A stretch of DNA of 64,000 bases from an uncultured bacterium (GCA_943788675.1 CALSRE010000002.1:73371-137370); one strand, 5' to 3'; shown: positions 7,538-53,409, counted from the first letter of the stretch. The notes: generated by a model not told the origin, from the sequence alone. Numbers and translations are program-made.

Positions 7538-8210
7538 CTTTTTTTCCTATCATTATTACAATTTCACCTTTTACTTTTGATTTAGAAAAATACTCAAGTA
7601 CTTTTGATAAATTACCTCTAATAATTTCTTCATACAACTTAGTTAATTCTCTTCCAACAACGACAGAACGATCTCCTAGACTCTCTAGTAATTGTGTTAA
7701 TGTTTTTACCAGCCTATAAGGGCTTTCGAATAAAATAATTGTATTATCTATATGAGATAAGTCTTGAATTTTTTTTAATCTTCCTTTTTTTTGAGGAAGA
7801 AAGCCATGGAAAGTAAATGAATCTGAAGGTAGTCCAGAAGCGCTCATTGCTGCAGTAATTGCTGATACTCCTGGAATTGGAATGATTCTTATTTCATGCT
7901 TTATACACTCTCTTATAAGACCGTATCCAGGGTCGCTTATGGTTGGAGTTCCTGCATCTGAAATTAACGCTAAGTCACTTCCTTCTAAAAGCAGATCAAC
8001 TATTTTTTGAGATTCTTTCTCGCTACTATGCTCATGGTAACTCATCATTCTTGTTTGAATACCATGCGCAGAAAGTAATTTTTTTGAATTTCTAGTATCC
8101 TCAGCTAATATGATATTTACATCTTTAAGCGTAGAAATAGCACGCAAAGTTATATCTTCAAGATTGCCAATTGGAGTTCCAACGACAAATAAATGGCCTT
8201 TGTCAGACAT
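7518..8210 (-). CDS. rsmI: 16S rRNA (cytidine1402-2'-O)-methyltransferase
   Basis: 230 aa. N-terminus LFVVGTPIGNLEDITLRAISTLKDVNIILAEDTR is typical of RsmI tetrapyrrole-methylase-fold enzymes. Confidence 0.85.
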   Translation of the reverse strand: MSDKGHLFVVGTPIGNLEDITLRAISTLKDVNIILAEDTRNSKKLLSAHGIQTRMMSYHEHSSEKESQKIVDLLLEGSDLALISDAGTPTISDPGYGLIRECIKHEIRIIPIPGVSAITAAMSASGLPSDSFTFHGFLPQKKGRLKKIQDLSHIDNTIILFESPYRLVKTLTQLLESLGDRSVVVGRELTKLYEEIIRGNLSKVLEYFSKSKVKGEIVIMIGKKDDRIHF

Positions 8211-9559
8211 TATGATAGTTTATTAAGAGCTCTTCTAAAACAATCTATACCAAAGTTAATATCATCTTCAGTAACGTTTAAATGCGGTCTAAATCTTATA
8301 GAATAATTTCCAGAACCTAGCAAAATAGATCCCTCGTCTAATAATAAGCCAGCAAGCTTGTCTCTGTCATCACTAGATGGTAAATCAAATGCACAGTATA
8401 ATCCCTTTCCTCTAGAATTTGAAACCAATGAAGGAAATTCATTCTGTAGTTCATGAATACTTTTTAACAAATACTCACCAGACTTTGCTGCCTTGTCTAC
8501 TAAATTTTCTTTTTCAATCAATTCAAGGTAAATAGTTAGCCTAACCATATCGACCAAGCTACCGCCCCAGGTTGAATTGATTCTACTAGATTCGCGAAAA
8601 ACATTACCTTCAACTTCATCAAATCTGGTGCTTGCAGCAACTCCACAAACCTGAGTTTTCTTACCAAAAGAAATTATATCAGGCTTTGCAGAAAGGTCTG
8701 CTCCGCATGAGCAACCATTAGTGCAATTACTTGTTGCAAAATGTTGATGAGCCCACATCTTTCCTGTAACACCAACGCCAGTTTGTACTTCATCATAAAT
8801 TAAGATAATGTCGTTCTCATCAGCGATATTTCTTAACGATCGCATAAACTCACATCTAAAATGATTATCTCCACCCTCACCTTGAATAGGCTCAATAACT
8901 ATAGATGAAATATTATCTGGATTAGCACTAATAGCATCTTTTATCTCTTTGATAGCTTGATTTTCAAGTTCAATGATATGATCAATATTATCCTCAATAG
9001 GGAATGTAATTTTAGGATTAGTTACTCTAGGCCAATCAAATTTTGGAAAGTACATTGTTTTTCTTTTATCAGGAGAATCTGTTAAGGACATTGTGTAACC
9101 TGTTCTTCCATGAAAGCACTGTTTAAAGTGGATTACTTTTTCTCCTTTAGCAGAGCTTCCTTTAGCTAAATTCTTTCTTCTCTTCCAATCAAAAGCAGCC
9201 TTAAGCGCATTTTCTACTGCTAATCCACCACCCTCAATAAAAAATGATAATGGTAAATAGTCAGGTTGAGCAACTCTTTTGAATGTTTGAACAAATTCAG
9301 CCATTTCTTGAGAATAGACATCTGAATTTGTTGGCTTATTTATTGCAGCAATTCTTAACCTTTCTGACTGTTCAAGAACATAAGGATGATTATATCCTAC
9401 TGACAACGAAGCGAACATAGAAAATAAATCCAGGTACTCTTTTCCGCTTACCTTATCTACTAACCATGAACCATGTGATTTTTCAAGATCGATTATTGGA
9501 GACATTCCATCAGCTAAAATACTTTCACCGATGACGCTTCTTATTTCAGATTTTTTCAT
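8210..9559 (-). CDS. class-III PLP aminotransferase, L-lysine 6-transaminase-like
   Basis: 449 aa with the class-III aminotransferase layout. PLP-lysine context ISFGKKTQVCG. Overall resemblance to LAT-type enzymes, but the substrate cannot be proven from sequence. Confidence 0.65.
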   Translation of the reverse strand: MKKSEIRSVIGESILADGMSPIIDLEKSHGSWLVDKVSGKEYLDLFSMFASLSVGYNHPYVLEQSERLRIAAINKPTNSDVYSQEMAEFVQTFKRVAQPDYLPLSFFIEGGGLAVENALKAAFDWKRRKNLAKGSSAKGEKVIHFKQCFHGRTGYTMSLTDSPDKRKTMYFPKFDWPRVTNPKITFPIEDNIDHIIELENQAIKEIKDAISANPDNISSIVIEPIQGEGGDNHFRCEFMRSLRNIADENDIILIYDEVQTGVGVTGKMWAHQHFATSNCTNGCSCGADLSAKPDIISFGKKTQVCGVAASTRFDEVEGNVFRESSRINSTWGGSLVDMVRLTIYLELIEKENLVDKAAKSGEYLLKSIHELQNEFPSLVSNSRGKGLYCAFDLPSSDDRDKLAGLLLDEGSILLGSGNYSIRFRPHLNVTEDDINFGIDCFRRALNKLS

Positions 9560-9570
9560 TTAAGACACTC

Positions 9571-10338
9571 CTATTTTTCACGGTTTTTGAAGGACCAAAA
9601 ACCTAAAACGACAATAATAAATAATAATACATAAAAAGTTGCAAAATTGTAATCAGCAGATGAATAATCAATCAAGTCATTAAATCTTCCAATAAGCAAG
9701 GAGATTCTTCCCATAACTGCAAATCCAAACGAAGCTCCAAAACTAACCATTAGAAAATAAATACCTAGACGAGTAAATCTTCCAAAATTACCTGTTTGCT
9801 CTTTTGAAAAATAAAAATACATCAGAGAACTTATAGTACCAACTAAGAGAACAATATTGTTAAAAACACTATCTCCACCGAGGCTAAAAAATGGCAACGA
9901 TCCACTAAAAAGGTCTACTGAGCTTGCTTTTACTTGGTTTAAAACATTTGAGTTTAAATAGCCAAAAGCCTTTAGACCAGCAGCTATCGCAACTGTGTAA
10001 GCAATTCCCCACCTAGCCATCCAATTAAACTGCTGAAATACGCTTAATAACATCATTAAGCCTAAAATAAGTGGAAATAAATATAGGATATTAAATTCAT
10101 GATTAAAGTCAAATTCTAAACCAGTAAATGACAGAGGTCCATCTTTTGGAAATAGTCTTCCAAAAAGATTTGGATAAATCTGTGTCCAAAAACTTATCGC
10201 TGCAACATATGCAGCTGAAACACCCACAAAAACATTCTCAGCAATTTTATAGAATGGGTTATCCTTGTAAAGATAAGAAAATATACCCAACGTTAAAAAC
10301 GCTGCTATCCATGCTCCTAAAATTGCAGAAAAAGTCAT
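9571..10338 (-). CDS. cassette protein 7: polytopic membrane protein, unknown family
   Basis: 255 aa with about 7 hydrophobic helices by eye. Its start overlaps the stop of the upstream gene by 1 nt. Confidence 0.6.
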   Translation of the reverse strand: MTFSAILGAWIAAFLTLGIFSYLYKDNPFYKIAENVFVGVSAAYVAAISFWTQIYPNLFGRLFPKDGPLSFTGLEFDFNHEFNILYLFPLILGLMMLLSVFQQFNWMARWGIAYTVAIAAGLKAFGYLNSNVLNQVKASSVDLFSGSLPFFSLGGDSVFNNIVLLVGTISSLMYFYFSKEQTGNFGRFTRLGIYFLMVSFGASFGFAVMGRISLLIGRFNDLIDYSSADYNFATFYVLLFIIVVLGFWSFKNREK

Positions 10339-11204
10339 TAATACTTCCTATCTCTTCGTTGCTTAATAAAAAATGCTAAATTTCCAAATACAATAAATAT
10401 TACAATAACTATATGAGCAAATGATTGCGCTGCCATTCCTTGAATTGCTATCCCAGGAGAAGCTATTAATTTTTCATATTCTGCTGCTCCAGGCATTCCA
10501 GCCAACAAACCAATTAATTGTCCGGTTTGCACATAAGGAATAACTTCGTTTACTTGGACAGAAGTTGTTCCTGATGACATTGGAACTCCCGTAGGATCTC
10601 CGCCATATTTTACCCATTCAAATGTTCCAGGGTATCCAGCAGAACCGCTATAGATATAAGCAAAATCATTTAAATTTTTAATCTCGTCCATCATTTCAAT
10701 ATCATCGATAAATCTACCCTTGGCATCGACTGTATACACTTTACGTAAATCGCTCGCAAGCCCTTTAATAACAGCTTCAGCACCCGGTCTATAGCCTAAC
10801 AACACATAATCTTCATACTCTTTAATATCAAAGGTTGATTGATTATCAGGATTTACTTCATCTGTGATTTCTTCTAACGCATCTAAAGCCATATAAATAC
10901 CATCTGGCCATAAACATGAAATATAAATTTTATGTCCATTTCGAAGCATATGTCTTAAAACACCGACATTCATTGGGTGAATTTCTGGCATAGTACTTGG
11001 ACCATAATCAAATGAAACTAATACCTTAGAATTTTTTGGAATATTATCGATTCCTTCATAAAACTTAACAGTAGTTGGAGTTTCTCTAACAGGCAAACTA
11101 ATAGGAGTTAATAATGGTATAAGCACTGCTAAACCTATTAACAAGAAAATAATTCTTCTGTCAACAGCTCCAAGCTTCAATATAATATCTTCTAAATACT
11201 TCAC
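10338..11204 (-). CDS. cassette protein 6: bitopic protein with large central soluble domain, unknown family
   Basis: 288 aa. N-terminal helix IIFLLIGLAVLIPLL and C-terminal helix FAHIVIVIFIVFGNLAFFI flank a soluble domain of about 220 aa. 1-nt overlaps at both ends. Confidence 0.6.
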   Translation of the reverse strand: MKYLEDIILKLGAVDRRIIFLLIGLAVLIPLLTPISLPVRETPTTVKFYEGIDNIPKNSKVLVSFDYGPSTMPEIHPMNVGVLRHMLRNGHKIYISCLWPDGIYMALDALEEITDEVNPDNQSTFDIKEYEDYVLLGYRPGAEAVIKGLASDLRKVYTVDAKGRFIDDIEMMDEIKNLNDFAYIYSGSAGYPGTFEWVKYGGDPTGVPMSSGTTSVQVNEVIPYVQTGQLIGLLAGMPGAAEYEKLIASPGIAIQGMAAQSFAHIVIVIFIVFGNLAFFIKQRRDRKY

Positions 11205-12103
11205 TACTCTCCTAAATACGATTTTTCTAATCCAAAAATATATCTAAGACTTGTTGCGACAATTCCAAGTCCAATACCAATTAAAATTGCTCTTGATCCA
11301 GCTAAATTAGGAACCAAATAAATCCATTCCTGAAGTGCAGGTAGATAAAAAATAGCTGGCTGATCTACTGGCCAACCCATAGTAAATCCTAATCCGGTAA
11401 TTAAACCAAAGCTTCCTAATACCCATCCAAGAGCCATATTACGATTCCTAGTGTATGCATTGACTCCAAAACCAACTGAAAAAGCAATAATATACATAAT
11501 TACCCATGAAGAAATTAAACTTCCCACAGGAACTCTACCAAGCATGATAATAATTCCAGCGACTAGCAATAAGGATGCTTCGAGATTTCGAGCTCTAAAT
11601 GCTCTAAAAGAAGCTGATGCTACAAAAAATGCTAACAATGCAAACATAGTTGCAGATAGTGGTGAGAAGATATATTTAAACATCCATTGGAATAAACTTC
11701 CATCAGTTTGAACATGTGCTCCCCAATCAACTGGAACAATTTGTTCAGAAGAACCTAAAGATAAAATTGCCTCTTCTGCGGCTCCTTGACTAAAATATAC
11801 TTCTTCTCCAACAAAATATGCACCTCTTATAAAAAACCCAATAATGAATGCAAAAAAGAATGAGGTAATTGCAACAGCGCTATACTGCCAACCTGACTGC
11901 TGCTTAAGTACTTTAATAAATTGAAGTTTTAATAGATTCAGTGCTCCTAAGAAAACAGCAAATGCTGCGATTATATCGAAGAACTGGGTAGCATCATCAT
12001 TGGCAAACGTTTCTATGGTTTCATTATCAATAAACCATGCACTCAATGTAAGTGTTCCGAAAAATGCAACAATACCAATTGGGATATATCTTTTTAGTAA
12101 CAT
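11204..12103 (-). CDS. cassette protein 5: polytopic membrane protein, unknown family
   Basis: 299 aa with about 8 hydrophobic helices by eye. A 1-nt gap separates it from the upstream gene. Confidence 0.6.
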   Translation of the reverse strand: MLLKRYIPIGIVAFFGTLTLSAWFIDNETIETFANDDATQFFDIIAAFAVFLGALNLLKLQFIKVLKQQSGWQYSAVAITSFFFAFIIGFFIRGAYFVGEEVYFSQGAAEEAILSLGSSEQIVPVDWGAHVQTDGSLFQWMFKYIFSPLSATMFALLAFFVASASFRAFRARNLEASLLLVAGIIIMLGRVPVGSLISSWVIMYIIAFSVGFGVNAYTRNRNMALGWVLGSFGLITGLGFTMGWPVDQPAIFYLPALQEWIYLVPNLAGSRAILIGIGLGIVATSLRYIFGLEKSYLGE

Positions 12104-12104
12104 A

Positions 12105-12980
12105 TTATAAGTTTAAACAAGTAATAAGGTTAAAATCAGTTAAACCTAAATCAAAAAATGCTCTTGAAATTATAGAAAGCATAATAAATCCAATGAGTAA
12201 CACTTTGATAATATCCTGAGCTGTAATTCCCGCGATTAGTTCTGGCTCCTCCGACAAGTAAGCACTAGCAGCAAAAAACTCTTCTCCCATTAAGGTATAG
12301 TCGCATGCTGTAACAAAGAATGGAATTTGAGTTTGAGAACCAGTACCAGCTATTTGAATAGCACCAATACTATTACCAGTTTCAGCAAACAATAAAGATT
12401 CTGCAAAAAATTTACCCATATAAAGACATGCTGCAGGTTCATCTCTTTGCATAATACCATTTACAGCAGCTGCATAAGCAAACTGATCATCTGTTACATA
12501 GTGAACCATATCTTCATTATACATTTCAGGTCTACCTTGAGTCATATATGCTTCTTTGGCAACCTGTCTTGCAGATTGCATTACAATCGCTCTAGCAACA
12601 GGTACATCAAGTTCTGTTTCATACTGTGCAGTCATATTAGCAACATGGCCTAAAACAACAACACCAGCGACAGTTTCAACTTCATTCATATCCATAATAC
12701 CAGGAACATACAAAATAGGTCTGCCCATTTCTGTAGATCTTCCAACTGCTTCTTCAACTGCTTTTAGTCCAGGAATGGTTCTTAAAAAAGTTTTTTCAGA
12801 AGAATTTTTAGCAAGCCTCACTTCATATAACATAATCATAATAACAGTTAACGTAAAAGCGAACATTGCAGATTTTTCTTCTCTAAAAAAATTGAGAGAA
12901 TCAGGAAGAGATGACAGTGCAAAAGTAAGTAGTAAAATTCCTACTATTCCACCTGCATATACTTGATATTTATTATTCAT
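12105..12980 (-). CDS. cassette protein 4: membrane protein with central soluble domain, unknown family
   Basis: 291 aa with two N-terminal helices and one C-terminal helix. The central domain contains GRPILYVPGIMDMNEVETVAGVVVLGHVANM. Confidence 0.6.
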   Translation of the reverse strand: MNNKYQVYAGGIVGILLLTFALSSLPDSLNFFREEKSAMFAFTLTVIMIMLYEVRLAKNSSEKTFLRTIPGLKAVEEAVGRSTEMGRPILYVPGIMDMNEVETVAGVVVLGHVANMTAQYETELDVPVARAIVMQSARQVAKEAYMTQGRPEMYNEDMVHYVTDDQFAYAAAVNGIMQRDEPAACLYMGKFFAESLLFAETGNSIGAIQIAGTGSQTQIPFFVTACDYTLMGEEFFAASAYLSEEPELIAGITAQDIIKVLLIGFIMLSIISRAFFDLGLTDFNLITCLNL

Positions 12981-13263
12981 TTTTGTCTAATCTTTCTATC
13001 TCTTGAATTAAAAATTCTACACTGTGATGATTCTCAAAAATCTCAGCAGCCTTATAATAACTATCTGTTTTGACAAATGCACTAATTATTGGTCCAAAAA
13101 AAATCATTGCTTGACTTCCAACAAAATTTAACGGTTTCATCATTTCTAAAAAAAAGATTGACGGTGTAGTCAATCTTCGTGCTATTACTTCTTCAGCCAT
13201 TCTAGTTAGAAATACTTTATCGTCTATATTTAAAGATTTATTCATCTGTTTCAACCATCTCAA
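12973..13263 (-). CDS. cassette protein 3: small (96 aa) protein with one hydrophobic hairpin-like segment
   Basis: Overlaps both neighbours (26 nt and 8 nt). Hydrophobic core TPSIFFLEMMKPLNFVGSQAMIFFGPIISAF. The true start is uncertain. Confidence 0.45.
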   Translation of the reverse strand: MRWLKQMNKSLNIDDKVFLTRMAEEVIARRLTTPSIFFLEMMKPLNFVGSQAMIFFGPIISAFVKTDSYYKAAEIFENHHSVEFLIQEIERLDKNE

Positions 13264-14365
13264 GATTTGCTCTTGGAATTAAAAAATTTTCTCCAGCAAT
13301 ATTAATTTCAGCAACCCTAACCATTGTTTCAGATTCCATCTTATTAAGCTCAGATGGCAAAGATACTACTGTACCAATTTTACCAAAATTTGGTGAACGA
13401 ATAACCCTAACAGTACTTCCTTCCTGAATCCCTTTTGGCATTTTAGATTCACTATCGTTTTCAGAATTAGAACTATCAATAGGAATTACAATTTCTGGTC
13501 GAATAACACCTGCTCTAATTTGTGTAGCTCCATTAATTGAGGCTGCTTTACCAACATTATCTTTTAATAGAGAGTATGTAGCTTCACTCATTGGAATAGA
13601 TCCATAACCCTCAGTAACTATTAAGGCTGTATTTAATTTTTCTGTACCTGTAATAGCAACTCCAAGATTGTAACCTAAAACCGCTTTCAAATCATAATAA
13701 TTAAAACCTCCAACAACAATTCCAGCAACATTGACACTTAGCGCTTTTTTGTAAGCTTCAAGACTTAAAAAAGACCCACCAATCAGAATTCTACCTTTCA
13801 TATCAGCAGTAATTTGCTCTGCAGTCAATTCTTCGGAAGAACTAGAAGAAACTAAAACTAAATCTCCTCTTTTTTCGCCTGCTATACCAAAAATACCCTG
13901 AATAAATGCAGCATGAGACGAGAGAATGATACCTTCGTTTTCAATTACCTCATCTACTTTACCGCTAACATATGCATCTACTTCAACTGGCACAGGAGCT
14001 TCACGAACCACAATTCTACCAGTACTTTGAGAAACAGATTCAATAGTTCCATCTACAGGACTTTCAACAGATGATTTAAACATCCCAAATACACCAGCTG
14101 TTTCAGCTATGAGGTCACCTTTTTTAACAGCCTGTCCTTCTTTAACTTTAAGCGCCTCAACAACATCTTTTGGATCAATATTCAAAATGTTACTTACTTT
14201 TAACATTTGTACATTACCGGGCAAATTTGTTGATGCAACAATAGTGTCAGGATTTAAGACATCACCCTCTTTAACTAAAACATCTCCTTTTAAAGGAAGA
14301 ATTCTTTCTTTTTTAAAAATTGTTTTCTTTAAAACTTTTAAACCAGGAGTATATGAATGTGCCAT
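13238..14365 (-). CDS. cassette protein 2: soluble protein with barrel-sandwich-hybrid (lipoyl/biotinyl-like) N-region and KOW/SH3-like C-terminus
   Basis: 375 aa. Hybrid-motif-like VKEGQAVKKGDLIAE...SPVDGTIESV. Glycine-rich central segment GRILIGGSF...VAGIVVGGFNYYD. C-terminal GSTVRVIRSPNFGKIGTVVSL. Confidence 0.6.
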   Translation of the reverse strand: MAHSYTPGLKVLKKTIFKKERILPLKGDVLVKEGDVLNPDTIVASTNLPGNVQMLKVSNILNIDPKDVVEALKVKEGQAVKKGDLIAETAGVFGMFKSSVESPVDGTIESVSQSTGRIVVREAPVPVEVDAYVSGKVDEVIENEGIILSSHAAFIQGIFGIAGEKRGDLVLVSSSSSEELTAEQITADMKGRILIGGSFLSLEAYKKALSVNVAGIVVGGFNYYDLKAVLGYNLGVAITGTEKLNTALIVTEGYGSIPMSEATYSLLKDNVGKAASINGATQIRAGVIRPEIVIPIDSSNSENDSESKMPKGIQEGSTVRVIRSPNFGKIGTVVSLPSELNKMESETMVRVAEINIAGENFLIPRANLEMVETDE

Positions 14366-16191
14366 TAAAAAACTTCTCCCTTTGGATATTCATCTACAGC
14401 TTTGGACCAACTTAATAAGCTATCAATTCTTTTATTTGATTCTTTTGATAGTGTAATAGGACGATTTCTTCCGTCAAAAATTAATCCAACTACCCCTCCA
14501 TAAATTACAGAATCCAAGGCTTCACCTTTACCTGCACCAACATCTATTCCTCTTACTGGTTTTATTGAAATTTTAACTTCTTCATAAGGATACTCCATCA
14601 TTTCTAATGTTCCTTCATTAATTACAAGATCTTTAACAGTTCCATCATTAAAAGTTAAAGTTATATCAGCCATTTTAGAATTAGGCTTTATGCTTCCAAC
14701 TGGAGTAACACAGGTTCCTAGTCGAATTAAGCAGTCATTATCAAAAACTTCTAACGCTGCCTGACTAGCATCGTCTTTTAATTCTTCTTTATCTATATTG
14801 GCTAATACTCCTAATTGTGGCATCATAAATATAGAATCAACAGCTAATTGGGTTATACCCTCTGGCATAAATGAGTCTATTAACATTCTAGCGGACTGCT
14901 GCCTTCTTGGGGCATGAGAAAGAACTCCTCCAGACCCAACTAAAAGATCTAATTCCATCATATTTACAAGAGATTGTCCACTTGAAGATTGCTCAAATGC
15001 ATCTGAAATCGTTCTTTCAGATTGAACACCTTTTAAGCTTGTAGCAAACTCTTTATGTTGAATAAAAGACAATCTTAAAGCTTCTCTAGCAATAGCCTGT
15101 TCAATAACTAGCTCCTCAAGAGATTGAGGAACTGTAGTTGGTCGAATCATTTTATTACCAATTCTATTAGTTAGTTCACTCCTATCAATATCAAAAGGAA
15201 CCCATCTTAAAACATTGTCTAAACCTGACTCAGCAAGTACATTACATATTGAATAACTCATACCTAAATTAGCACTTACGGTTCTATTAAATTTTCCTTC
15301 AAAAACAGAAAAAATATCTGTTGTAGCGCCACCAATATCTACTCCTACAACAGAGATATTCTCTTTTTTAGCAATCATTTCGATTAAAGATCCTACAGCT
15401 CCTGGTGTAGGCATAATTGGTGCATCGGTCCAAGACATAAGTTTTTTATATCCTGGTGCTTGTGCCATAACATGCTCCATAAATAAATCATGTATTTTAT
15501 CTCTTGAAGGTTCAAGATTTTCTTGTTCTAAAACAGGTCGAATATTATCAACAATGTCTAAATCTGATATTTCTCCAAGTGTCTTTTTAATTGAATCTTG
15601 CGCTTTATTATTTCCTGCATAAATAACAGGCAACTTATAATTTTGTCCTAATCTTGGACGCGGATTTGCAGCAGCTAGAATTTCTGCCAACTCCATAACG
15701 TGAGTAGTTGTTCCTCCATCTGTACCACCAGATAATAAAATCATATCTGGACGTAATTGTCTAATTCTTGTTATTTTTTCATGCGGGAGCCTTCCATCAT
15801 TTGAAGCTAGAACGTCCATAACAATCGACCCTGCTCCAAGCGCTGCTCTTTCTGCGCTTTCACCAGACATAGACTTAACAACACCTGCAACCATCATTTG
15901 CAAGCCTCCGCCAGCTGAACTAGTGGAAACATAAATATCTACACCGCTTGTTCCATTATCAGGAGTGATAATTTTATCACCATCGAGTATAGTTCTTCCA
16001 GAAAGTTCTTCTACCTCCATTACAGCATTTAAAACCCCTTTGGTTACATCTTCAAAAGGTGCCTCCACTGTAGTTGGGGCCTCACCTCTAAACGTCAACT
16101 TGTACCTGTCTTCTTTCCATTCTATGAGAACAGCTTTGGTGGTAGTACTACCGCAGTCGGTAGCCAAAATTGATTTGATTTTCTTACTCAT
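14365..16191 (-). CDS. cassette protein 1: ASKHA-superfamily ATPase of the GlmL/MutL (glutamate-mutase accessory) type with extra C-terminal beta-rich domain
   Basis: 608 aa. Two phosphate-binding motifs, ILATDCGSTTTKAVL and VVGVDIGGATTDIFS, plus LLSGGTDGG. Overlaps cdsA by 4 nt upstream and the next gene by 1 nt downstream. Confidence 0.7.
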   Translation of the reverse strand: MSKKIKSILATDCGSTTTKAVLIEWKEDRYKLTFRGEAPTTVEAPFEDVTKGVLNAVMEVEELSGRTILDGDKIITPDNGTSGVDIYVSTSSAGGGLQMMVAGVVKSMSGESAERAALGAGSIVMDVLASNDGRLPHEKITRIRQLRPDMILLSGGTDGGTTTHVMELAEILAAANPRPRLGQNYKLPVIYAGNNKAQDSIKKTLGEISDLDIVDNIRPVLEQENLEPSRDKIHDLFMEHVMAQAPGYKKLMSWTDAPIMPTPGAVGSLIEMIAKKENISVVGVDIGGATTDIFSVFEGKFNRTVSANLGMSYSICNVLAESGLDNVLRWVPFDIDRSELTNRIGNKMIRPTTVPQSLEELVIEQAIAREALRLSFIQHKEFATSLKGVQSERTISDAFEQSSSGQSLVNMMELDLLVGSGGVLSHAPRRQQSARMLIDSFMPEGITQLAVDSIFMMPQLGVLANIDKEELKDDASQAALEVFDNDCLIRLGTCVTPVGSIKPNSKMADITLTFNDGTVKDLVINEGTLEMMEYPYEEVKISIKPVRGIDVGAGKGEALDSVIYGGVVGLIFDGRNRPITLSKESNKRIDSLLSWSKAVDEYPKGEVF

Positions 16192-30519: not shown

Positions 30520-31013
30520 TAAGCTAAATTTGTCTCCCCGAATTTAGCAATTTTATCGTATCCTTCAAGCGATTCCTTTGCTGAGCATTCAACCACAAGA
30601 AATCCACCTTTATTAATTTTTTTAAGTGCATTTTGAACAAAAAGATTCAAATTATATATATTGTATGGAGGATCTGCAAAAATTATATCATAGTTATCAC
30701 ATTTTTTAATAAAACGCTGAGCATCTCTTCTCAAAAAGGTAAAGTTATTGTAATCTAATTTTTTAGAATTTTCTATAATTTGATTAAGATATTTTTTATT
30801 CATTTCTACAAAAGATACTTGTTGAGCACCTCTACTCGCAGCTTCAAAGCCAATCATACCTGAACCTGAAAAAACATCTAAAAATGATTTGCTTTCTAGG
30901 GAGCAGATTGTATCAAAAACACTTTTTCTGCAGATAGCTGTGGTTGGTCTAAAATGGGAATTCTTTTGGATATTTAAAGAAGTATTTTTGAAAACTCCTG
31001 AATTAATCTTCAT
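30507..31013 (-). CDS. rsmD: 16S rRNA (guanine966-N2)-methyltransferase
   Basis: 168 aa. SAM motif LDVFSGSGMIGFEAASRGA and the catalytic FADPPY. Confidence 0.85.
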   Translation of the reverse strand: MKINSGVFKNTSLNIQKNSHFRPTTAICRKSVFDTICSLESKSFLDVFSGSGMIGFEAASRGAQQVSFVEMNKKYLNQIIENSKKLDYNNFTFLRRDAQRFIKKCDNYDIIFADPPYNIYNLNLFVQNALKKINKGGFLVVECSAKESLEGYDKIAKFGETNLAYWKV

Positions 31014-32446
31014 GATTCAATAATAGTAACATATAAATGTAAGCTTTCTTCTTTACTAAAACTTACCTTTTTAACGAACATATTATTAAAACTTTCAATC
31101 TCATTAACAATATCTAGAATACTATCACTCTTTTCAAACCTAAGTACAAGATTTATAGCATTTTTATTGTCAAACTTTGAATTAAATACTTTGAATTTTA
31201 AGTTACTATCTATTTCAAATAATTTGATTAACAGTTCACCATAACTTGCACTAGTATTGCTTTTAGTTACAGTAAACGAATTATTATCAAATTCAATTTT
31301 TTGTTCATTCACATTGAAAACATTATCAGAAACAACAAAACTATTTAATTGACTATCACTATTCATTGCAATCTTTAATTTATTTACAACTCCATAAGAA
31401 GCTCTTAATGCGACTTCTCTTGGTGTTAGGTTTTTTTCAACTTCTTTAACTTTTTCAACTCCAATCTCTTGCTCTGTATCTAAAAATTTATATTCTGAAA
31501 AGAAAGAAATTATAAGAGTTAAAAATAGAATTGAAATTATACCAGAAGAAAAATTTCTAATGAGATTTTGATAATCAAAATTATTATTTGATACATTAAA
31601 TGTTTTTTTAATGGAATGAATTTCTCCGCCAATGATCTGAGCTCTATTAGTATCTGCAAAATTCAATAATGGTACATCCTTTAATATAAAATTGTCTAAA
31701 TATTCAACTATCTTCAACCTATTGAAAAAAATAAATTTTAAATTACTTTTTTCTAACTCTCTAAGCTGTATTTTTGGAAGATCTAGTAAGCCTATAATTT
31801 TTTCAAAGCTTTTTTTTGTTCCGGAGAAATTGGCTTTAAAAAACATAAATCCTTTCTTGGTATCACCAAAAAATGTGAATTTCTTACCATTTTTAATCGT
31901 TGCAAATTGAGTAGACTTTAGCCCAGTAGTTACAACCGAAGAAAGAGGAATTAAATAATTAATATTCATTCCAAAATTGTTAAAGTTTAGCTTAATTTTT
32001 TCTCTTAAAAAATGATGGATAGCAATAGAATGATATACATTTTTAGGAAACTTTTTTTCCTCAGATATAAAATATAGATTATCTACAATCTTACCCCACT
32101 TCAAAGAAGCTTCCTTTTTAAGTTGTTCATCTATTGTTTTATATTTCTTTGACTTCATAACGACTGAATGACTTAAAAGACTATCATCAATTACAATAGA
32201 AGTTCTATGATTTGTTAAGGATACTTTTTCGCTAAGCTCATCTAAAGATCTTGCAATTACTGAATTAAGTTTTTTAGAATTATTTAGAACTTTTAATAAT
32301 GGAATATGGAATTTTACTTTATCAGCTAAAGCAAGACTCTGCTTATTTTTTGAATGATTGTAAACAGATAGTGAAGTATTATCTATTAAGAAGTAAAGCA
32401 ACCAACTAATTATCCCAACTTCTGGATCCATCAATAATATATCCAT
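31010..32446 (-). CDS. hypothetical protein: possible degenerate actin-fold (PilM/DUF3822-like) N-region, one TM helix, C-terminal domain
   Basis: 478 aa with a single internal hydrophobic helix, GIISILFLTLIISFF. No nucleotide-binding motifs are seen. The start is uncertain because of a 41-nt overlap upstream. The family idea rests on architecture and the rsmD neighbourhood only. Confidence 0.35.
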   Translation of the reverse strand: MDILLMDPEVGIISWLLYFLIDNTSLSVYNHSKNKQSLALADKVKFHIPLLKVLNNSKKLNSVIARSLDELSEKVSLTNHRTSIVIDDSLLSHSVVMKSKKYKTIDEQLKKEASLKWGKIVDNLYFISEEKKFPKNVYHSIAIHHFLREKIKLNFNNFGMNINYLIPLSSVVTTGLKSTQFATIKNGKKFTFFGDTKKGFMFFKANFSGTKKSFEKIIGLLDLPKIQLRELEKSNLKFIFFNRLKIVEYLDNFILKDVPLLNFADTNRAQIIGGEIHSIKKTFNVSNNNFDYQNLIRNFSSGIISILFLTLIISFFSEYKFLDTEQEIGVEKVKEVEKNLTPREVALRASYGVVNKLKIAMNSDSQLNSFVVSDNVFNVNEQKIEFDNNSFTVTKSNTSASYGELLIKLFEIDSNLKFKVFNSKFDNKNAINLVLRFEKSDSILDIVNEIESFNNMFVKKVSFSKEESLHLYVTIIES

Positions 32447-39557: not shown

Positions 39558-41354
39558 TTAGTAAAAGAACAAAGGAATATATGTAATTGAAAATACCCCA
39601 AATAATCTTAATAAAAAGAAAGGTAAAGTAGCGCTATAAATAGTAGGCATATCTTTTTCAAATCTATAAGAGGATAAATATAAATTCATTCCTACTGGAG
39701 GAGTAATATAACCTAGTTCTAAATTAGCAATAAAGATTATTGCTAGGTGAAATGGATCTATTCCAAAATATATTGCCAAAGGAGCTATTAAGGGAACTAC
39801 AACAATTATTGCTGAAAAAATATCCATTAAGCAACCGACTATCAACAATAAGATGTTTAAAGCAAATAAAAATATAATTTTTGAAGTTATTGTACTTTGA
39901 ACAAAATTTAAAATTTTCAAGGGTATTTGTGCATCTACAAGATATCCTGTGAATCCCATGGCAAAACCAAGGATAATTAATACTCCTCCTACTAAAGTTG
40001 AACAATTAATAATAATTTTAGGAATATCATTAAAGCTGATATCTTTAAAGATGACTACTTCAACCATTAAAACATATAAAACCAGCAGAGCTGCACTTTC
40101 GACTAATGTTGCAAAACCTGTAAAAATACTCAAAATGATTAAGAGAGGAACTGCTATTTCCCATTTAGCAATTTTGCCAGTCAATATTGCATCTTTTAAA
40201 ATAAATTTTTGCTTGATATCAGTTTTAGGCTTTTTGTAAAGGCCATAAAAAAACATAATACTCATTAAAAAAATAGCTGGTACAAGCGCTTGTCTAAAAA
40301 GTTCTAAGGGATTAATTCCAGCAGTCACAGAATAGATTATAGCTGGTAAGCTAGGAGGAAATAATAACCCTAATGAACCTGCTGTTGTTATAATGCCTAA
40401 AGAAAATCTCTCTGTGTAACCATCATGAATCAAAATAGGATATAAAATAGCTCCTAAAGCCAATATTGTTACGCCCGAACCTCCAGTCAAAGCAGTAAAA
40501 AAAGCACATAACAAAACTACAATCAAAACTGAAGAACCTGGTAGCCAACCGACGCTGGCTTTAAAAAAATTAATTAACCTCTCGGATATATTGCTTTCAG
40601 CAAGAATATATCCTGCCAAAGTAAAAATTGGAATTGCAGCTAAAGTAGGTGAAACAACAATTCTATATGCACTATCGCTAATAGTAGAAATTAAATCAAA
40701 ATTAGTTGCCCAATCAGTTGGTTCAGATAAAAAGAAAAATACAGATAGCGAAGCAAGAAAAACAAAAATTGGCAATCCAAATGCAACCAGAGCTAGAGCA
40801 GAAATAACCTTAGTCCACAACAAGAATGAATTTGCTAAAGGAAATTGCCAATAATAAAGAGTGATAGCGGGAACAATAGAAACAATCACTAGTAAAATTC
40901 TATACTTTAAATTTGTACTGCTAGTAATAATCATTTGATACCAAATCAACATCAATCCTAATGGTATAATAGATTGAGCAAACCAAGTGGTTACATACGG
41001 TGCAATATACTCCGGATATTGAATACCTATCTGAATCATTTTGAGGTAAGAAATTGATAAAATAAAAACCATTGCAACAGAAAAAGCATGTACTAAGAAA
41101 TGAGGCAATGAATTTGAATCTGAAGATCTAAAAACTGGCTCCCTTACAATCGAAAGAAGTTTATTTGATCTTGTAGCAATTATAGCGCCCACAAAACCAA
41201 TCCAAAGCGTCATATGTTGAACAATTTGTTGTGAAGCAGGAATAGAAAAGAAATCTATGTACCTGCTAAGAATTTGAAAAATTGGAAAAGAAATAAGAAT
41301 TAAAAATAAAAATAAACAAAGCTTATCAATTGCCTTATTTATAAAATCATTCAT
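39558..41354 (-). CDS. TRAP transporter fused small/large permease (DctQ-DctM type)
   Basis: 598 aa, highly hydrophobic. About 4 helices form a DctQ-like N-part and a DctM-like body follows. Overlaps the upstream binding-protein gene by 8 nt. Confidence 0.8.
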   Translation of the reverse strand: MNDFINKAIDKLCLFLFLILISFPIFQILSRYIDFFSIPASQQIVQHMTLWIGFVGAIIATRSNKLLSIVREPVFRSSDSNSLPHFLVHAFSVAMVFILSISYLKMIQIGIQYPEYIAPYVTTWFAQSIIPLGLMLIWYQMIITSSTNLKYRILLVIVSIVPAITLYYWQFPLANSFLLWTKVISALALVAFGLPIFVFLASLSVFFFLSEPTDWATNFDLISTISDSAYRIVVSPTLAAIPIFTLAGYILAESNISERLINFFKASVGWLPGSSVLIVVLLCAFFTALTGGSGVTILALGAILYPILIHDGYTERFSLGIITTAGSLGLLFPPSLPAIIYSVTAGINPLELFRQALVPAIFLMSIMFFYGLYKKPKTDIKQKFILKDAILTGKIAKWEIAVPLLIILSIFTGFATLVESAALLVLYVLMVEVVIFKDISFNDIPKIIINCSTLVGGVLIILGFAMGFTGYLVDAQIPLKILNFVQSTITSKIIFLFALNILLLIVGCLMDIFSAIIVVVPLIAPLAIYFGIDPFHLAIIFIANLELGYITPPVGMNLYLSSYRFEKDMPTIYSATLPFFLLRLFGVFSITYIPLFFY

Positions 41355-49158: not shown

Positions 49159-50373
49159 TTAATTTTTTGATAAAATTGAGACCAAAGAAAGGATAATAAA
49201 ACATAGCAACATAAACGAACCTCCAGCAGAAATAAAAGGTGTTGGTAGTCCTTTTACTGGCATTAATCCAATGGTCATTGCTGAATTAACAAAAATATGA
49301 GAAAACATAATTGAAGTTAAACCAATTATAACAAGGCTTGAAAAATAATCTGTAACCTTAAAAGCCAAATCAAGAAAAGTCTTAATTAACATAAAAAATA
49401 AAATCATTATAATGGATATACCAAAAAATCCAAATTCTTCTGCAATGACTGATAAAATAAAATCAGACTCTTGGACTGGAAGGAATTTTAATTGAGTTTG
49501 TGAACCCTGCCCCCAACCTTTACCAAAGAGGCCGCCTGAACCAATAGCTGTAATGCTCTGAATAATATGATATGAAGACCCCATTGGATCTAAATCTGGA
49601 TTTAAAAAATCAAGAAATCTTTGTCTTTGATATCCATTTAAAAAATCATTCCAAAATAAAGGGAATAAAAGTCCAGTAAAAATATTGGCGAAGTATAAAA
49701 CAATTCGCCTTAATAAGCTTCCTTGAAAAATCATAAAAATAATAAACATAATGACTGCCCAAATATTGAATATCATAAAATTTGATGCTGCTAAGATTGT
49801 TAAAAGTGGAGCAATCAAAAGAAAAATGGTAAACGTGTTTACCCCTGCCCAAAGAAGCATCGGTAAAACCGGGGCAAAAATTATTACAGCAGTACCTAAA
49901 TCTGGCTGATTCAATACTATAAAAGCAGACAACATTGCTATAGCTAGTGGAATGATAATAATATAGTTTTCTTTAACTTCAAGTTGATGATTTGATAAAT
50001 ACTTAGCTATTACAATAATTGTAGCACATTTTAAATATTCTCCAGGCTGAATGTAGAAAAAACCTAAATCTATCCATCTAAAGGTATTTTCAACTGGTGG
50101 AAGAAAAAATGGTATAAAACATAAAAAAAATGACCCTAAATAAATTAAAGTCGAATTATCGTGAATTGTTTTCACATTCATTCGCTGAATTACGAAAAAC
50201 ACAAAAAAAGAAAAAATGATAAAAATGATTTGTCTAAAGAATGTACTGCTTAAAGATGTAGGATCATTTGAAATGCTATAAAGAGTGATTAGACCGAAAG
50301 ATAATAAAGATAATACAATTAAATATAACCTTCCAAGATATTCATTTGACCCACTTAAATAATTATTGAACAA
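49159..50373 (-). CDS. rodA: rod shape-determining protein RodA (SEDS family)
   Basis: 404 aa, polytopic. FtsW/RodA motifs IQPGEYLK and DLGTA. Located downstream of mrdA. Confidence 0.9.
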   Translation of the reverse strand: MFNNYLSGSNEYLGRLYLIVLSLLSFGLITLYSISNDPTSLSSTFFRQIIFIIFSFFVFFVIQRMNVKTIHDNSTLIYLGSFFLCFIPFFLPPVENTFRWIDLGFFYIQPGEYLKCATIIVIAKYLSNHQLEVKENYIIIIPLAIAMLSAFIVLNQPDLGTAVIIFAPVLPMLLWAGVNTFTIFLLIAPLLTILAASNFMIFNIWAVIMFIIFMIFQGSLLRRIVLYFANIFTGLLFPLFWNDFLNGYQRQRFLDFLNPDLDPMGSSYHIIQSITAIGSGGLFGKGWGQGSQTQLKFLPVQESDFILSVIAEEFGFFGISIIMILFFMLIKTFLDLAFKVTDYFSSLVIIGLTSIMFSHIFVNSAMTIGLMPVKGLPTPFISAGGSFMLLCFIILSLVSILSKN

Positions 50374-52144: not shown

Positions 52145-52616
52145 TGAGAATTGCCTCTTTCAATGAAAATATTCTTATCAATATAAAACCAACAAAACAA
52201 GTGAAATATGTTACAAAAAAACAATTAGAAAGGAAAAGCAGGAAATCATTAAAGAAGAAATAATCATATCTAAATAATGAATATATCACTATACCCAAAT
52301 GCACAAAAGCAATCCAGTACAAATCAAAATTTCTAAAAGCAAAATTATGACTGACTTTAGATGCCCAAAATCCACATATAGAAAACACTAAACTTGAAAC
52401 ACCTATATAGACTCCGCTAAAAAGGACAAAATCAGTAAAAATACCAACCAGAAAACCATTTATGGTTGACTGGGAGGCGTTGTTATCTGATGGCATTGAA
52501 GACAAAATAACATACAAAAGCATGATATTTGCTTGATAACCATTGAATGTCAGTAATTCAGAGAATAAAAGCTGAAGAAAAACTGCAAAAGGAAAAAGCT
52601 TTAAGAAAAAACTCAT
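52137..52616 (-). CDS. mreD: rod shape-determining protein MreD
   Basis: 159 aa, hydrophobic. Positioned between mreC and mrdA. Confidence 0.75.
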   Translation of the reverse strand: MSFFLKLFPFAVFLQLLFSELLTFNGYQANIMLLYVILSSMPSDNNASQSTINGFLVGIFTDFVLFSGVYIGVSSLVFSICGFWASKVSHNFAFRNFDLYWIAFVHLGIVIYSLFRYDYFFFNDFLLFLSNCFFVTYFTCFVGFILIRIFSLKEAILSA

Positions 52617-53407: not shown

Positions 53408-53409
53408 TC

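What the first reader, a model, noticed from the sequence alone, without database searches (positions are those of the whole stretch)
9571..16191. Translationally coupled seven-gene cassette: GlmL/MutL-type ASKHA ATPase, hybrid-barrel/KOW protein and five membrane-associated proteins, with no mutase partner
Seven consecutive minus-strand ORFs are joined by start/stop overlaps of 1-26 nt or a 1-nt gap. The junctions are 14365/14365, 13263/13238, 12980/12973, 12105/12103, 11204/11204 and 10338/10338. This is the pattern expected for subunits made in fixed stoichiometry.

Protein 1 (608 aa) has two ASKHA phosphate-binding motifs, ILATDCGSTTTKAVL and VVGVDIGGATTDIFS. Overall it resembles the GlmL/MutL accessory proteins of B12-dependent mutase operons. 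No mutase S/E subunit or other radical/B12 enzyme is recognisable anywhere in the 64 kb.

Protein 2 (375 aa) joins a lipoyl/biotinyl-like barrel-sandwich hybrid segment (VKEGQAVKKGDLIAE...SPVDGTIESV, without a biotin/lipoyl attachment context) to a C-terminal KOW/SH3-like segment (GSTVRVIRSPNFGKIGTVVSL).

The other five are a 96-aa protein and four membrane proteins with roughly 3, 8, 2 and 7 helices by eye. Two of them carry large soluble domains. I cannot place any of the five in a known transporter, respiratory, secretion or lipid-enzyme family.

An ATPase, a hybrid-barrel adaptor and polytopic membrane subunits together follow the design logic of an energised membrane machine. This particular combination is not one I know as a described system.
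Basis: partly seen in the sequence, partly recalled or inferred. Interest (0 to 1): 0.8.

Follow-up and report, generated by a model that had tools for sequence, protein, structure and literature searches.

The report
Undescribed ATPase-linked membrane complex gene cluster
Seven neighbouring genes in this small marine bacterial (Marinimicrobia) genome encode an actin/Hsp70-type ATPase, a partner protein and a four-subunit membrane complex; the set stays together across several bacterial phyla but matches no described system, so it is probably an unstudied cell-envelope machine.

Summary
The start/stop overlaps are not evidence of a unit: 28 of 53 other gene junctions in the window also overlap, including cdsA into P1.

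The evidence for a unit is synteny. P4-P5-P6-P7 is a strictly colinear module in 70-77 of 80 genome loci, from Marinimicrobia, Zixibacteria, Planctomycetes, Ignavibacteria, WOR-3 and others. In many Zixibacteria- and Ignavibacteria-labelled loci it forms ordered arrays of two or three paralogous modules. P1 sits directly upstream of P2 in 44 of 48 P2-anchored loci, and one contig encodes them as a single fused ORF. The flanking genes are conserved only within Marinimicrobia.

P1 is a long member of Pfam MutL. It has intact ATPase motifs, scores below every GlmL cut-off and has no mutase nearby. P2 is cytoplasmic: a hybrid barrel, an alpha/beta domain and a KOW domain. P4 is DUF6754, a cytoplasmic Rossmann-like domain between membrane helices. 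P3, P5, P6 and P7 match no Pfam, NCBIfam or PDB family.

Best guess: an ATP-serviced inner-membrane machine acting on the envelope. This mechanism is inferred, not shown. No paper in the library mentions it.

The parts
14365..16191 (-). P1, 608 aa. ASKHA-fold ATPase of Pfam family MutL (GlmL-like core, residues 8-470) plus a conserved beta-rich C-terminal extension of about 140 aa.
   Evidence: PF13941 at E=7e-125. It scores below the NCBIfam cut-offs for GlmL (224 vs 475), Or-4 (211 vs 600) and TIGR01319 (161 vs 204). The motifs ATDCGSTTTK, VDIGGATTD and SGGVLSHAPR are invariant, and mean column identity across phyla is 64%. No PDB sequence relative was found even at E<=10.
13238..14365 (-). 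P2, 375 aa. Cytoplasmic three-part protein: barrel-sandwich-hybrid and beta domains (about residues 11-171), an alpha/beta middle domain with invariant glycine-rich loops (about 180-295), and a C-terminal KOW domain (316-370).
   Evidence: Sub-threshold BSH and KOW Pfam hits. AlphaFold model with pLDDT 80.6. Foldseek found only domain-level matches: Spt5/NusG KOW and a weak PA-domain match. Mean column identity is 55%, with invariant YTPGL, QGIFGxGGE and NGATQIRAGVxRPE and no conserved hairpin lysine. P1 is directly upstream in 44 of 48 loci. A P1-P2 fusion ORF occurs in L066.
12973..13263 (-). P3, 96 aa at most (start uncertain: TTG at 13263 or ATG at 13245). Small protein with one conserved hydrophobic hairpin, followed by an acidic helix.
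   Evidence: No family hit. Conserved motif PAxFFLExxKPLxFxGSQxMxFFxP. Hydrophobic segment at residues 44-64. Present in 34-35 of 80 loci. Outside Marinimicrobia it lies upstream of P1, next to a membrane protein with a bacterial PH domain.
12105..12980 (-). P4, 291 aa, DUF6754. Two N-terminal membrane helices, a cytoplasmic six-strand Rossmann-like domain (about residues 70-243) and a long C-terminal membrane helix.
   Evidence: PF20539 at E=1e-107. AlphaFold model with pLDDT 79 and pTM 0.72. No PDB fold match at E<=1e-3, only generic Rossmann folds with TM 0.38 or less. About 55 invariant residues, with many at or just after the predicted strand ends. Homologues carry FN3 or beta-propeller domains N-terminal to the helix that precedes DUF6754. 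The family has 2028 clusters at 50% identity.
11204..12103 (-). P5, 299 aa, polytopic membrane subunit with about 8 helices here. The family core is shorter (median ORF 228 aa), and the Marinimicrobia copies carry extra hydrophobic segments.
   Evidence: No Pfam, NCBIfam or PDB family. Conserved motifs FFVASASYRAFRA and AGQRAIMIGIALG. Always follows P4. One paralogue carries FG-GAP repeats in a loop predicted to be periplasmic.
10338..11204 (-). P6, 288 aa (GTG start), bitopic. N-terminal helix, a soluble domain of about 210-225 aa predicted to be periplasmic, and a C-terminal helix with conserved Q260, H264 and N275.
   Evidence: No family in Pfam, NCBIfam or PDB, even when 48 members were scanned. 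Topology follows from the positive-inside rule. Invariant residues are listed. Always follows P5.
9571..10338 (-). P7, 255 aa, polytopic membrane subunit with about 7 helices here.
   Evidence: No family in Pfam, NCBIfam or PDB. Unrelated to P5. Conserved motifs LYKDNPFYKxAE, YFFFSKEHKG and FGASFGYTVMxRISLLIGR. Always follows P6.

Best explanation
The cassette encodes one conserved, so far undescribed multi-protein system of the cell envelope. It has two parts.

(1) An inner-membrane complex of four different subunits, P4-P7. P4 exposes a Rossmann-like domain, with a highly conserved pocket-like surface, to the cytoplasm. P6 exposes a domain of about 210-225 aa to the periplasm. P5 and P7 supply about 15 membrane helices.

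(2) A cytoplasmic pair. P1 is an Hsp70/actin-fold ATPase and P2 is a hybrid-barrel, alpha/beta and KOW protein. The small hairpin protein P3 is probably at the membrane surface.

Most likely mechanism: P1 binds and hydrolyses ATP. P2, which travels with P1 and is once fused to it, couples P1 to the cytoplasmic face of the membrane complex, most plausibly P4's domain. The resulting conformational work is passed through the P4-P7 helix bundle to the periplasmic side, where a component of the envelope is moved, inserted or assembled. In other phyla the periplasmic side is decorated with FN3, beta-propeller or FG-GAP binding modules.

What is shown: the genes, their topology, the domain folds, the intact ATPase motifs, the cross-phylum synteny, the modular architecture and the lack of any characterised relative. 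What is inferred: that the proteins touch each other, that ATP drives the membrane part, and that the target is extracytoplasmic.

The confidence of 0.4 is for the whole statement. That the genes form a real functional unit I put at about 0.9.
For: Unit:
- P4-P5-P6-P7 is colinear in 77, 76, 72 and 70 of 80 genome loci from at least eight phylum-level groups.
- Clustering of all locus ORFs finds no other family conserved across the phyla sampled; jackhmmer and HMM searches later found one small extra gene, P0, in 10 of the 80 loci.
- In the reciprocal scan anchored on P2, P1 is directly upstream in 44 of 48 loci and a P4 module is present in 35 of 47.
- L066 encodes P1 and P2 as one ORF.
- One P1-P2 pair precedes two or three tandem P4-P7 modules. 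Modules at the first, second and third positions of triple arrays fall largely into separate clades, so the triplication is old and its order is kept.

ATPase:
- The phosphate-1, phosphate-2 and adenosine motifs are invariant. The window protein is 58% identical to Planctomycete P1.

Topology:
- Hydropathy and the positive-inside rule and the AlphaFold model of P4.
- FN3 and PQQ-like propeller domains lie before the helix that precedes DUF6754. FG-GAP repeats sit in a P5 loop. This places the accessory binding modules outside the cytoplasm and the DUF6754 domain inside.

Ligand or partner site:
- Many of P4's invariant polar residues lie at or just after the predicted strand ends.

Importance:
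- The cluster is retained in a genome whose largest contig is about 1.0 Mb. In some lineages its genes are dispersed among housekeeping genes.
Against: - No direct evidence of physical contact between the cytoplasmic pair and the membrane module. No complex model could be run.
- About a quarter of P2-anchored loci have no P4-P7 within the available flank. Several P4-P7 modules have no P1-P2 within 10 kb. So the two parts are separable in the genome, and it is unknown whether those genomes encode the missing part elsewhere.
- No known transporter or motor uses an ASKHA ATPase as its engine. The named relatives of P1 (GlmL, EutA) are thought to be chaperone-like reactivases, not motors (my own knowledge).
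- The conserved sites in P2 and P4 would fit an enzyme as well as a coupling surface.
- Nothing identifies a substrate.
Confidence: 0.4

Rival explanations
1. Membrane-bound enzyme with a dedicated repair or assembly chaperone. P4, possibly with P2, carries the catalytic site. P1 acts like the GlmL/EutA/DdrA class, as an ATP-dependent chaperone that loads, exchanges or reactivates a cofactor or subunit of the membrane enzyme. It would not be a motor.
For: - P1 is homologous along its full length to GlmL-type accessory proteins and hits EutA weakly.
- P4's invariant polar and acidic residues lie at or near the strand ends of its Rossmann-like domain. By general knowledge, that edge is the classic active-site position in such folds.
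- P2's middle domain has invariant glycine-rich loops.
- One P1-P2 pair serves up to three membrane modules, as a shared chaperone would.
Against: - No cofactor-binding signature was seen: no B12 motif and no CxxxCxxC motif in any window ORF, including the seven, and no cofactor-binding or enzyme family among the profile hits.
- P4's fold search gave only generic Rossmann matches with TM 0.38 or less.
- P1 is more conserved than I would expect for an accessory factor, at 64% column identity across phyla.
- The periplasmic add-on domains are not explained by a cytoplasmic enzyme.
Confidence: 0.25
2. Membrane-anchored cytoskeletal system. P1 polymerises like other actin-fold proteins (MreB, FtsA, PilM-type). 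P2 and P3 regulate or tether it. P4-P7 connect the filament to periplasmic or cell-wall partners, giving a positioning or shape function.
For: - P1 has the actin/Hsp70 fold family assignment and very high cross-phylum conservation.
- It hits the actin-like morphology protein FcmB very weakly, at E=0.025.
- The membrane partners include bitopic proteins and periplasmic adhesion-type domains.
Against: - No member of the MutL/GlmL family is known to polymerise (my own knowledge; not testable here).
- The FcmB hit is far below its cut-off (13.5 vs 300 bits).
- The window appears to carry an MreB-type shape-gene cluster next to PBP2; only PBP2 was checked by profile. A further shape system is therefore not obviously needed.
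Confidence: 0.12
3. Ion-translocating redox complex built on the Nqr/Rnf plan. P2 would be the NqrA/RnfC-like peripheral subunit. P5 and P7 would be the polytopic ion-conducting subunits. P6 and P4 would be the bitopic subunits with periplasmic and cytoplasmic cofactor domains.
For: - P2's barrel hits RnfC_N and NQRA_N repeatedly. One homologue reaches the RnfC_N cut-off, 25.7 vs 25.6 bits.
- The subunit plan is superficially parallel to Nqr (my own knowledge): one peripheral protein, two polytopic subunits, and two bitopic subunits with soluble domains on opposite faces.
Against: - None of P4-P7 hits any Nqr or Rnf family.
- No CxxxCxxC motif in any window ORF and no redox-cofactor family among the profile hits.
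- NqrA and RnfC structures are not among the top 50 fold matches of P2.
- The presence of an ATPase has no counterpart in Nqr or Rnf.
Confidence: 0.05
4. P1 is an ordinary GlmL serving a B12-dependent mutase encoded elsewhere, and its adjacency to the other six genes is an accident of genome streamlining.
For: - P1 hits the GlmL and Or-4 models at E values of 1e-62 to 1e-66.
- Gene overlaps are common throughout this genome.
Against: - P1 scores far below every GlmL-family cut-off and carries a 140-aa extension.
- P1-P2 adjacency holds in 44 of 48 loci, and the whole set is syntenic in several phyla.
- No mutase family appears among the conserved neighbours.
- No B12 or radical-SAM signature was found in the window.
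Confidence: 0.03

Closest known systems
GlmL/MutL accessory proteins of glutamate mutase and the Or-4 protein of ornithine degradation (Pfam PF13941, TIGR01319)
   Same: P1 aligns over the whole GlmL core, residues 8-470, and has the same ASKHA phosphate and adenosine motifs.
   Different: - Scores are below all curated cut-offs.
- P1 has an extra conserved C-terminal domain of about 140 aa.
- No mutase is adjacent in any locus examined.
- P1 is instead linked to P2 and to a membrane module.
- GlmL itself has no established mechanism (my own knowledge), and no solved structure was found for any detectable relative of P1.
ASKHA reactivases and chaperones (EutA, diol-dehydratase reactivase, Hsp70)
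   Same: The fold superfamily and the ATP-binding motifs. P1 hits EutA weakly.
   Different: The hits cover only the phosphate-2 region, about 40 residues. The clients of those proteins are soluble B12 enzymes, whereas here the conserved partners are P2 and membrane proteins.
Na+-NQR / Rnf complexes (NqrA/RnfC with polytopic and bitopic subunits)
   Same: P2's hybrid barrel is nearest to the RnfC_N/NQRA_N type. The overall plan is similar: a peripheral cytoplasmic subunit, polytopic subunits, and bitopic subunits with soluble domains.
   Different: There is no homology in any membrane subunit, no redox-cofactor motif and no fold match of P2 to NqrA or RnfC. An ATPase is present.
Actin-fold proteins docked on bitopic membrane proteins (PilM-PilN/O, FtsA, GspL)
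   Same: A cytoplasmic actin-fold protein encoded next to bitopic membrane proteins that have periplasmic domains. This is an analogy of logic only.
   Different: No sequence relationship was detected. Those systems lack a P2-like partner and lack polytopic subunits of this kind.
Periplasmic hybrid-barrel adaptors of tripartite pumps (HlyD/AcrA, TIGR01730)
   Same: A short hybrid-barrel hairpin motif, scoring 22.7 bits against RND_mfp.
   Different: The score is far below the cut-off of 94.9. P2 has no signal peptide or membrane anchor and no alpha-hairpin, and it ends in a KOW domain. It is cytoplasmic.
NusG/Spt5
   Same: A C-terminal KOW fold. Some databases label P2 homologues as NusG.
   Different: P2 has no NGN domain. 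The match to T. maritima NusG has TM 0.14 overall. The database name is a mis-annotation.

Membership tests
GlmL/MutL mutase accessory protein | Match to Pfam MutL (PF13941) above the gathering score | tested here: met
   417.7 bits against a cut-off of 27, over residues 8-470.
GlmL/MutL mutase accessory protein | Score at or above the NCBIfam cut-offs for GlmL, Or-4 or the TIGR01319 subfamily | tested here: not met
   224 vs 475, 211 vs 600 and 161 vs 204 bits.
GlmL/MutL mutase accessory protein | Encoded beside the S and E subunits of a B12-dependent mutase | tested here: not met
   No mutase family appears among the conserved neighbours in 80 plus 80 loci. No window ORF has a B12-binding or radical-SAM signature. 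The largest other window ORFs are unrelated. The rest of the genome was not available.
ASKHA (actin/Hsp70/sugar-kinase) ATPases | Phosphate-1 (DxGxT), phosphate-2 (DxGGxT) and adenosine (GGG-type) motifs | tested here: met
   ATDCGSTTTK, VDIGGATTD and SGGVLSHAPR are invariant in 22 sequences from four phylum-level groups.
ASKHA (actin/Hsp70/sugar-kinase) ATPases | ATP hydrolysis | not testable with these tools
   Needs a biochemical assay.
Biotinyl/lipoyl carrier domains | Conserved modifiable lysine at the tip of the barrel hairpin, and a Pfam score above the cut-off | tested here: not met
   The hairpin position varies (K, S, T, G, R) across 28 homologues. Biotin_lipoyl scores 20.1 vs 22.1 and Biotin_lipoyl_2 scores 28.6 vs 29.8.
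HlyD/AcrA membrane-fusion adaptors | Periplasmic location (signal peptide or anchor) and an alpha-helical hairpin | tested here: not met
   No hydrophobic segment in P2. The model has no long helical hairpin. RND_mfp scores 22.7 vs 94.9.
Nqr/Rnf ion-translocating oxidoreductases | Membrane subunits of the NqrB/D/E or RnfA/D/E families, and cofactor motifs | tested here: not met
   No such hit for P4-P7 or for 42-48 homologues of each of P5, P6 and P7. P2's RnfC_N and NQRA_N hits are below the cut-off in the window protein. No NqrA or RnfC structure is among the top fold matches.
DUF6754 (PF20539) | Match above the gathering score | tested here: met
   P4 scores 359.6 bits against a cut-off of 27. 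The family has no known function.
NusG/Spt5 | NGN domain followed by KOW | tested here: not met
   Only the KOW fold is present.
ABC or other known transporter families | A profile hit to a known permease or ATP-binding cassette | tested here: not met
   No hit in Pfam or NCBIfam. The only recurring hit is a weak TMD0_ABC match (best E about 1e-3) in 12 of 42 P5 homologues, which is probably hydrophobic noise.
Anti-phage defence systems | A match to any PADLOC model | tested here: not met
   No hit for any of the seven proteins.

The most novel reading that the evidence does not exclude
This is the first example of a membrane machine powered by an actin/Hsp70-fold (GlmL-type) ATPase. It would be a new class of envelope-spanning apparatus, housekeeping in much of the FCB and PVC superphyla. 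Interchangeable four-subunit membrane modules, in up to three ordered paralogues, would share one cytoplasmic engine made of P1 and P2. This reading would also imply that the GlmL proteins of B12-mutase operons are a specialised offshoot of a much larger family of membrane-associated ATPases.
Probability: 0.3. Interest if true: 0.9.

Novelty: categorically new. Interest (0 to 1): 0.75.

Why it matters
- Six of the seven proteins have no functional annotation anywhere. Yet the set is conserved at 40-64% column identity from streamlined ocean Marinimicrobia (SAR406) to Planctomycetes and Zixibacteria. It is also kept in a genome whose largest contig is about 1 Mb. That pattern is typical of core machinery, not of an accessory trait.
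- If the system is an ATP-driven envelope machine with an ASKHA engine, it adds a new type of energy coupling to those known for bacterial membranes: ABC, P-type, AAA+, and proton-driven stators.
- It would also give a testable function to the long-enigmatic GlmL/MutL family.
- It supplies a concrete target for structural work and for genetics in culturable Planctomycetes or Ignavibacteria, and for interpreting abundant 'hypothetical' transcripts and peptides in ocean surveys.

Tried and rejected
- **Overlaps as evidence of coupling.** Rejected, because 28 of 53 other junctions also overlap.
- **Profile searches.** Pfam, NCBIfam and PADLOC gave nothing on the seven proteins beyond MutL, DUF6754 and weak barrel/KOW hits. 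Scanning 42-48 homologues each of P5, P6 and P7 gave no consistent family.
- **PDB sequence searches.** Single sequences and profiles of P1, P2, P4, P5, P6 and P7 gave no significant hit.
- **Profile-profile comparisons.** P5 vs P7, P1 vs P2 and P4 vs P6 showed no relationship.
- **Fusion search.** A search among 582 collected proteins found no fusions. The only fusion seen is L066.
- **Literature.** Searches for DUF6754, PF13941, TIGR01319, GlmL with ASKHA, and related terms found nothing relevant.
- **Promoter and terminator scan.** Counts were at chance level.
- **Motif ideas considered and dropped.**
  - HAD-like, DxD or Toprim readings of P4's DMD motif: the second Asp is Asn in the window protein and the spacing does not fit.
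  - A flavinylation-site reading of P2's NGAT: it lacks the conserved S/T and D positions, and P2 is cytoplasmic.
  - A PEP-utiliser or RraA-like swivel domain in P2: only E=0.38.

Full report
**Observation**

The junctions are as stated, with overlaps of 1, 26, 8, 1 and 1 nt and one 1-nt gap. The quoted peptide motifs are in the translations.

The window has about 31% G+C and is almost entirely minus-strand genes. Named homologues identify the organism as a Marinimicrobia (SAR406) bacterium. The same proteins occur on a contig of about 1.0 Mb.

Overlapping junctions are the rule in this genome. Of 53 junctions outside the cassette, 28 overlap. cdsA also overlaps P1 by 4 nt. So the overlaps are real but carry no information about a unit.

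**What each protein is**

- **P1** matches Pfam MutL (PF13941) at E=7e-125 over residues 8-470 and has a further ~140 aa.
  - It falls well below the NCBIfam cut-offs for GlmL, Or-4 and TIGR01319.
  - In 22 homologues from Marinimicrobia, Zixibacteria, Ignavibacteria-like bacteria and Planctomycetes, the three ASKHA nucleotide motifs are invariant. Mean column identity is 64%, and the C-terminal extension is conserved.
  - No PDB chain is detectably related, even with a profile.
- **P2** gives only sub-threshold hybrid-barrel and KOW hits.
  - Its AlphaFold model (pLDDT 80.6) shows a beta-rich N-terminal half, an alpha/beta middle domain and a KOW domain.
  - Foldseek finds only domain-level matches.
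  - It has no hydrophobic segment and no conserved hairpin lysine. It is therefore a cytoplasmic protein, not a biotin or lipoyl carrier and not a periplasmic adaptor.
- **P4** is DUF6754.
  - Its model (pLDDT 79, pTM 0.72) has two N-terminal helices, a six-strand Rossmann-like domain and a long C-terminal helix.
  - No PDB structure matches at E<=1e-3.
  - Many of its roughly 55 invariant residues lie at or just after the predicted strand ends.
- **P3, P5, P6 and P7** match nothing in Pfam, NCBIfam, PADLOC or the PDB. This holds even when 42-48 homologues of each of P5, P6 and P7 are scanned.
- **Topology.** Hydropathy gives 3, 8, 2 and 7 helices for P4-P7. The charge bias places P6's ~210-aa domain in the periplasm and P4's domain in the cytoplasm.

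**Synteny**

An exhaustive search found 2028 DUF6754 clusters at 50% identity. Many have long N-terminal extensions that carry FN3 or PQQ-type beta-propeller domains.

A scan of one genome per species returned 80 loci. They come from Marinimicrobia, Zixibacteria, Planctomycetes, Ignavibacteria, Eisenbacteria, Coatesbacteria, WOR-3, Stahlbacteria, Lentisphaeria and others.

- P4, P5, P6 and P7 homologues are present, always in that order, in 77, 76, 72 and 70 of these loci.
- P1 and P2 are present in 36-37 loci and P3 in about 35.
- cdsA, the lipid-kinase-like gene, lysine 6-transaminase and rsmI are neighbours only within Marinimicrobia.
- Clustering all locus ORFs revealed no other conserved family, apart from antisense shadow ORFs.

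Gene orders, writing each protein by its number, are:

- 1-2-3-4-5-6-7 in Marinimicrobia;
- 3-1-2-4-5-6-7 in Planctomycetes;
- 3-1-2 followed by two or three 4-5-6-7 modules in many Zixibacteria- and Ignavibacteria-labelled loci;
- in some lineages, 4-5-6-7 alone, or preceded only by P3.

A neighbour-joining tree of the DUF6754 domains places the first, second and third modules of triple arrays largely in three separate clades. The triplication is therefore old and its order is preserved.

A reciprocal scan anchored on P2 in metagenome contigs gave these counts:

- P1 is directly upstream in 44 of 48 loci that have enough upstream sequence.
- A P4 module is present in 35 of 47 loci that have enough downstream sequence.
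- A few loci have P2 alone, among housekeeping genes.

One contig (L066) encodes P1 and P2 as a single ORF.

Outside Marinimicrobia, an eighth gene sits directly upstream of P3. It encodes a protein of about 150 aa with a hydrophobic N-terminal region (about two predicted helices) and a bacterial PH domain. It is missing from the window.

**Interpretation**

The data establish a conserved system with two parts:

- a four-subunit inner-membrane module, P4-P7;
- a cytoplasmic pair, P1-P2, together with P3 and, elsewhere, the PH-domain protein.

The evidence bearing on mechanism is as follows.

- P1's invariant ATPase motifs and its extreme conservation argue that nucleotide turnover is central.
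- The P1-P2 adjacency and the single fusion argue that the two act together.
- The single P1-P2 pair before several membrane modules suggests a shared cytoplasmic component.
- The FN3, propeller and FG-GAP domains on the extracytoplasmic side of P4 and P5 suggest that the business end faces the envelope.

I therefore favour an ATP-serviced membrane machine that moves or assembles an envelope component, with about 0.4 confidence in the whole statement.

The main rival, at 0.25, is a membrane enzyme with P1 as a GlmL/EutA-style chaperone. It fits the family history of P1 and the active-site-like conservation in P4 and P2. It does not explain the periplasmic decorations.

The other readings are weaker.

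- A cytoskeletal role: 0.12.
- An Nqr/Rnf-like redox pump: 0.05.
- Chance adjacency of an ordinary GlmL: 0.03. This last reading is contradicted by the synteny.

**Known or new**

Databases name the members 'hypothetical protein', 'uncharacterized protein (TIGR01319 family)', 'DUF6754 domain-containing' or 'fibronectin type III domain-containing'. P2 is sometimes wrongly named NusG. No paper in the searchable library mentions DUF6754, PF13941 or TIGR01319, or links GlmL-type proteins to membrane partners.

**Limits**

- Only P4 and P2 were modelled, and the P2 alignment was shallow in diversity.
- Genome-wide co-occurrence could not be tested, because only 10-kb flanks were available.
- The absence of a mutase was checked by motif for all window ORFs of 90 aa or more, but by profile for only some of them.
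- The NJ tree is a quick distance tree without support values.
- The P1-P2 fusion is a single observation on a metagenome-assembled contig.

Noticed in passing
L063:4929-5384, L044:158-742, L048:2615-3067, L025:8734-9174, L082:5575-6039, L084:9032-9562: An eighth conserved gene lies directly upstream of P3 in Planctomycetes, Zixibacteria and others. It encodes about 150 aa with a hydrophobic N-terminal region (about two predicted helices) and a bacterial PH domain; one copy scores above the bPH_6 cut-off. It has no homologue in the window or in the Marinimicrobia loci.
   Followed up: partly
L066:14-2626: A single 870-aa ORF joins P1 (N-terminus cut by the contig end) to a full-length P2 through a linker of about 25 aa. 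It looks like a natural fusion, but it was seen only once, on a MAG contig.
   Followed up: partly
L032, L033, L038, L039, L048, L053, L058, L063, L065, L067, L081: The P4-P7 module is repeated two or three times in tandem. The paralogues group by their position in the array, so the triplication is ancient and ordered. The third-module P5 of L038 (14761-16533) carries FG-GAP repeats.
   Followed up: yes
L081:4259-4878 and L082:11357-13873: Foreign genes are inserted inside the cluster. In one contig a nucleotidyltransferase/HepT toxin-antitoxin pair lies between P1 and P2. In another, an M4 peptidase with a weak match to the Por_Secre_tail (type IX secretion sorting) domain lies between P2 and the first module.
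   Followed up: no
window 8210-9559: The gene just downstream of the cassette scores above the curated cut-off for L-lysine 6-transaminase (614 vs 521 bits). It is a neighbour of the cassette, adjacent or within a few kb, only within Marinimicrobia.
   Followed up: partly
window 56232-57869 and 31010-32446: Two large ORFs (545 and 478 aa) have no Pfam family at E<=1e-5.
   Followed up: no
window 50363-54450: A PBP2-type transpeptidase (confirmed by Pfam) is preceded by three ORFs of 159, 264 and 346 aa. Their sizes and order suggest mreD, mreC and mreB, but these three were not checked by profile.
   Followed up: no
window 39558-41354: A single 598-aa ORF combines the DctQ-like and DctM components of a TRAP transporter, making a fused small and large permease.
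   Followed up: no
L133:10001-11125, L134, L149:10001-11119: Here P2 homologues stand alone, with no P1 or P4-P7 within 10 kb. Their neighbours are housekeeping genes (RF-1, PrmC-like methyltransferase, DHDPS, FolP, AccD, PurL). The system's genes can therefore be dispersed.
   Followed up: partly
homologues of window 13238-14365 (P0472, P0474, P0477 and others): Several P2 homologues are labelled 'transcription antitermination factor NusG' by one source. This is probably a mis-annotation caused by the KOW domain.
   Followed up: partly
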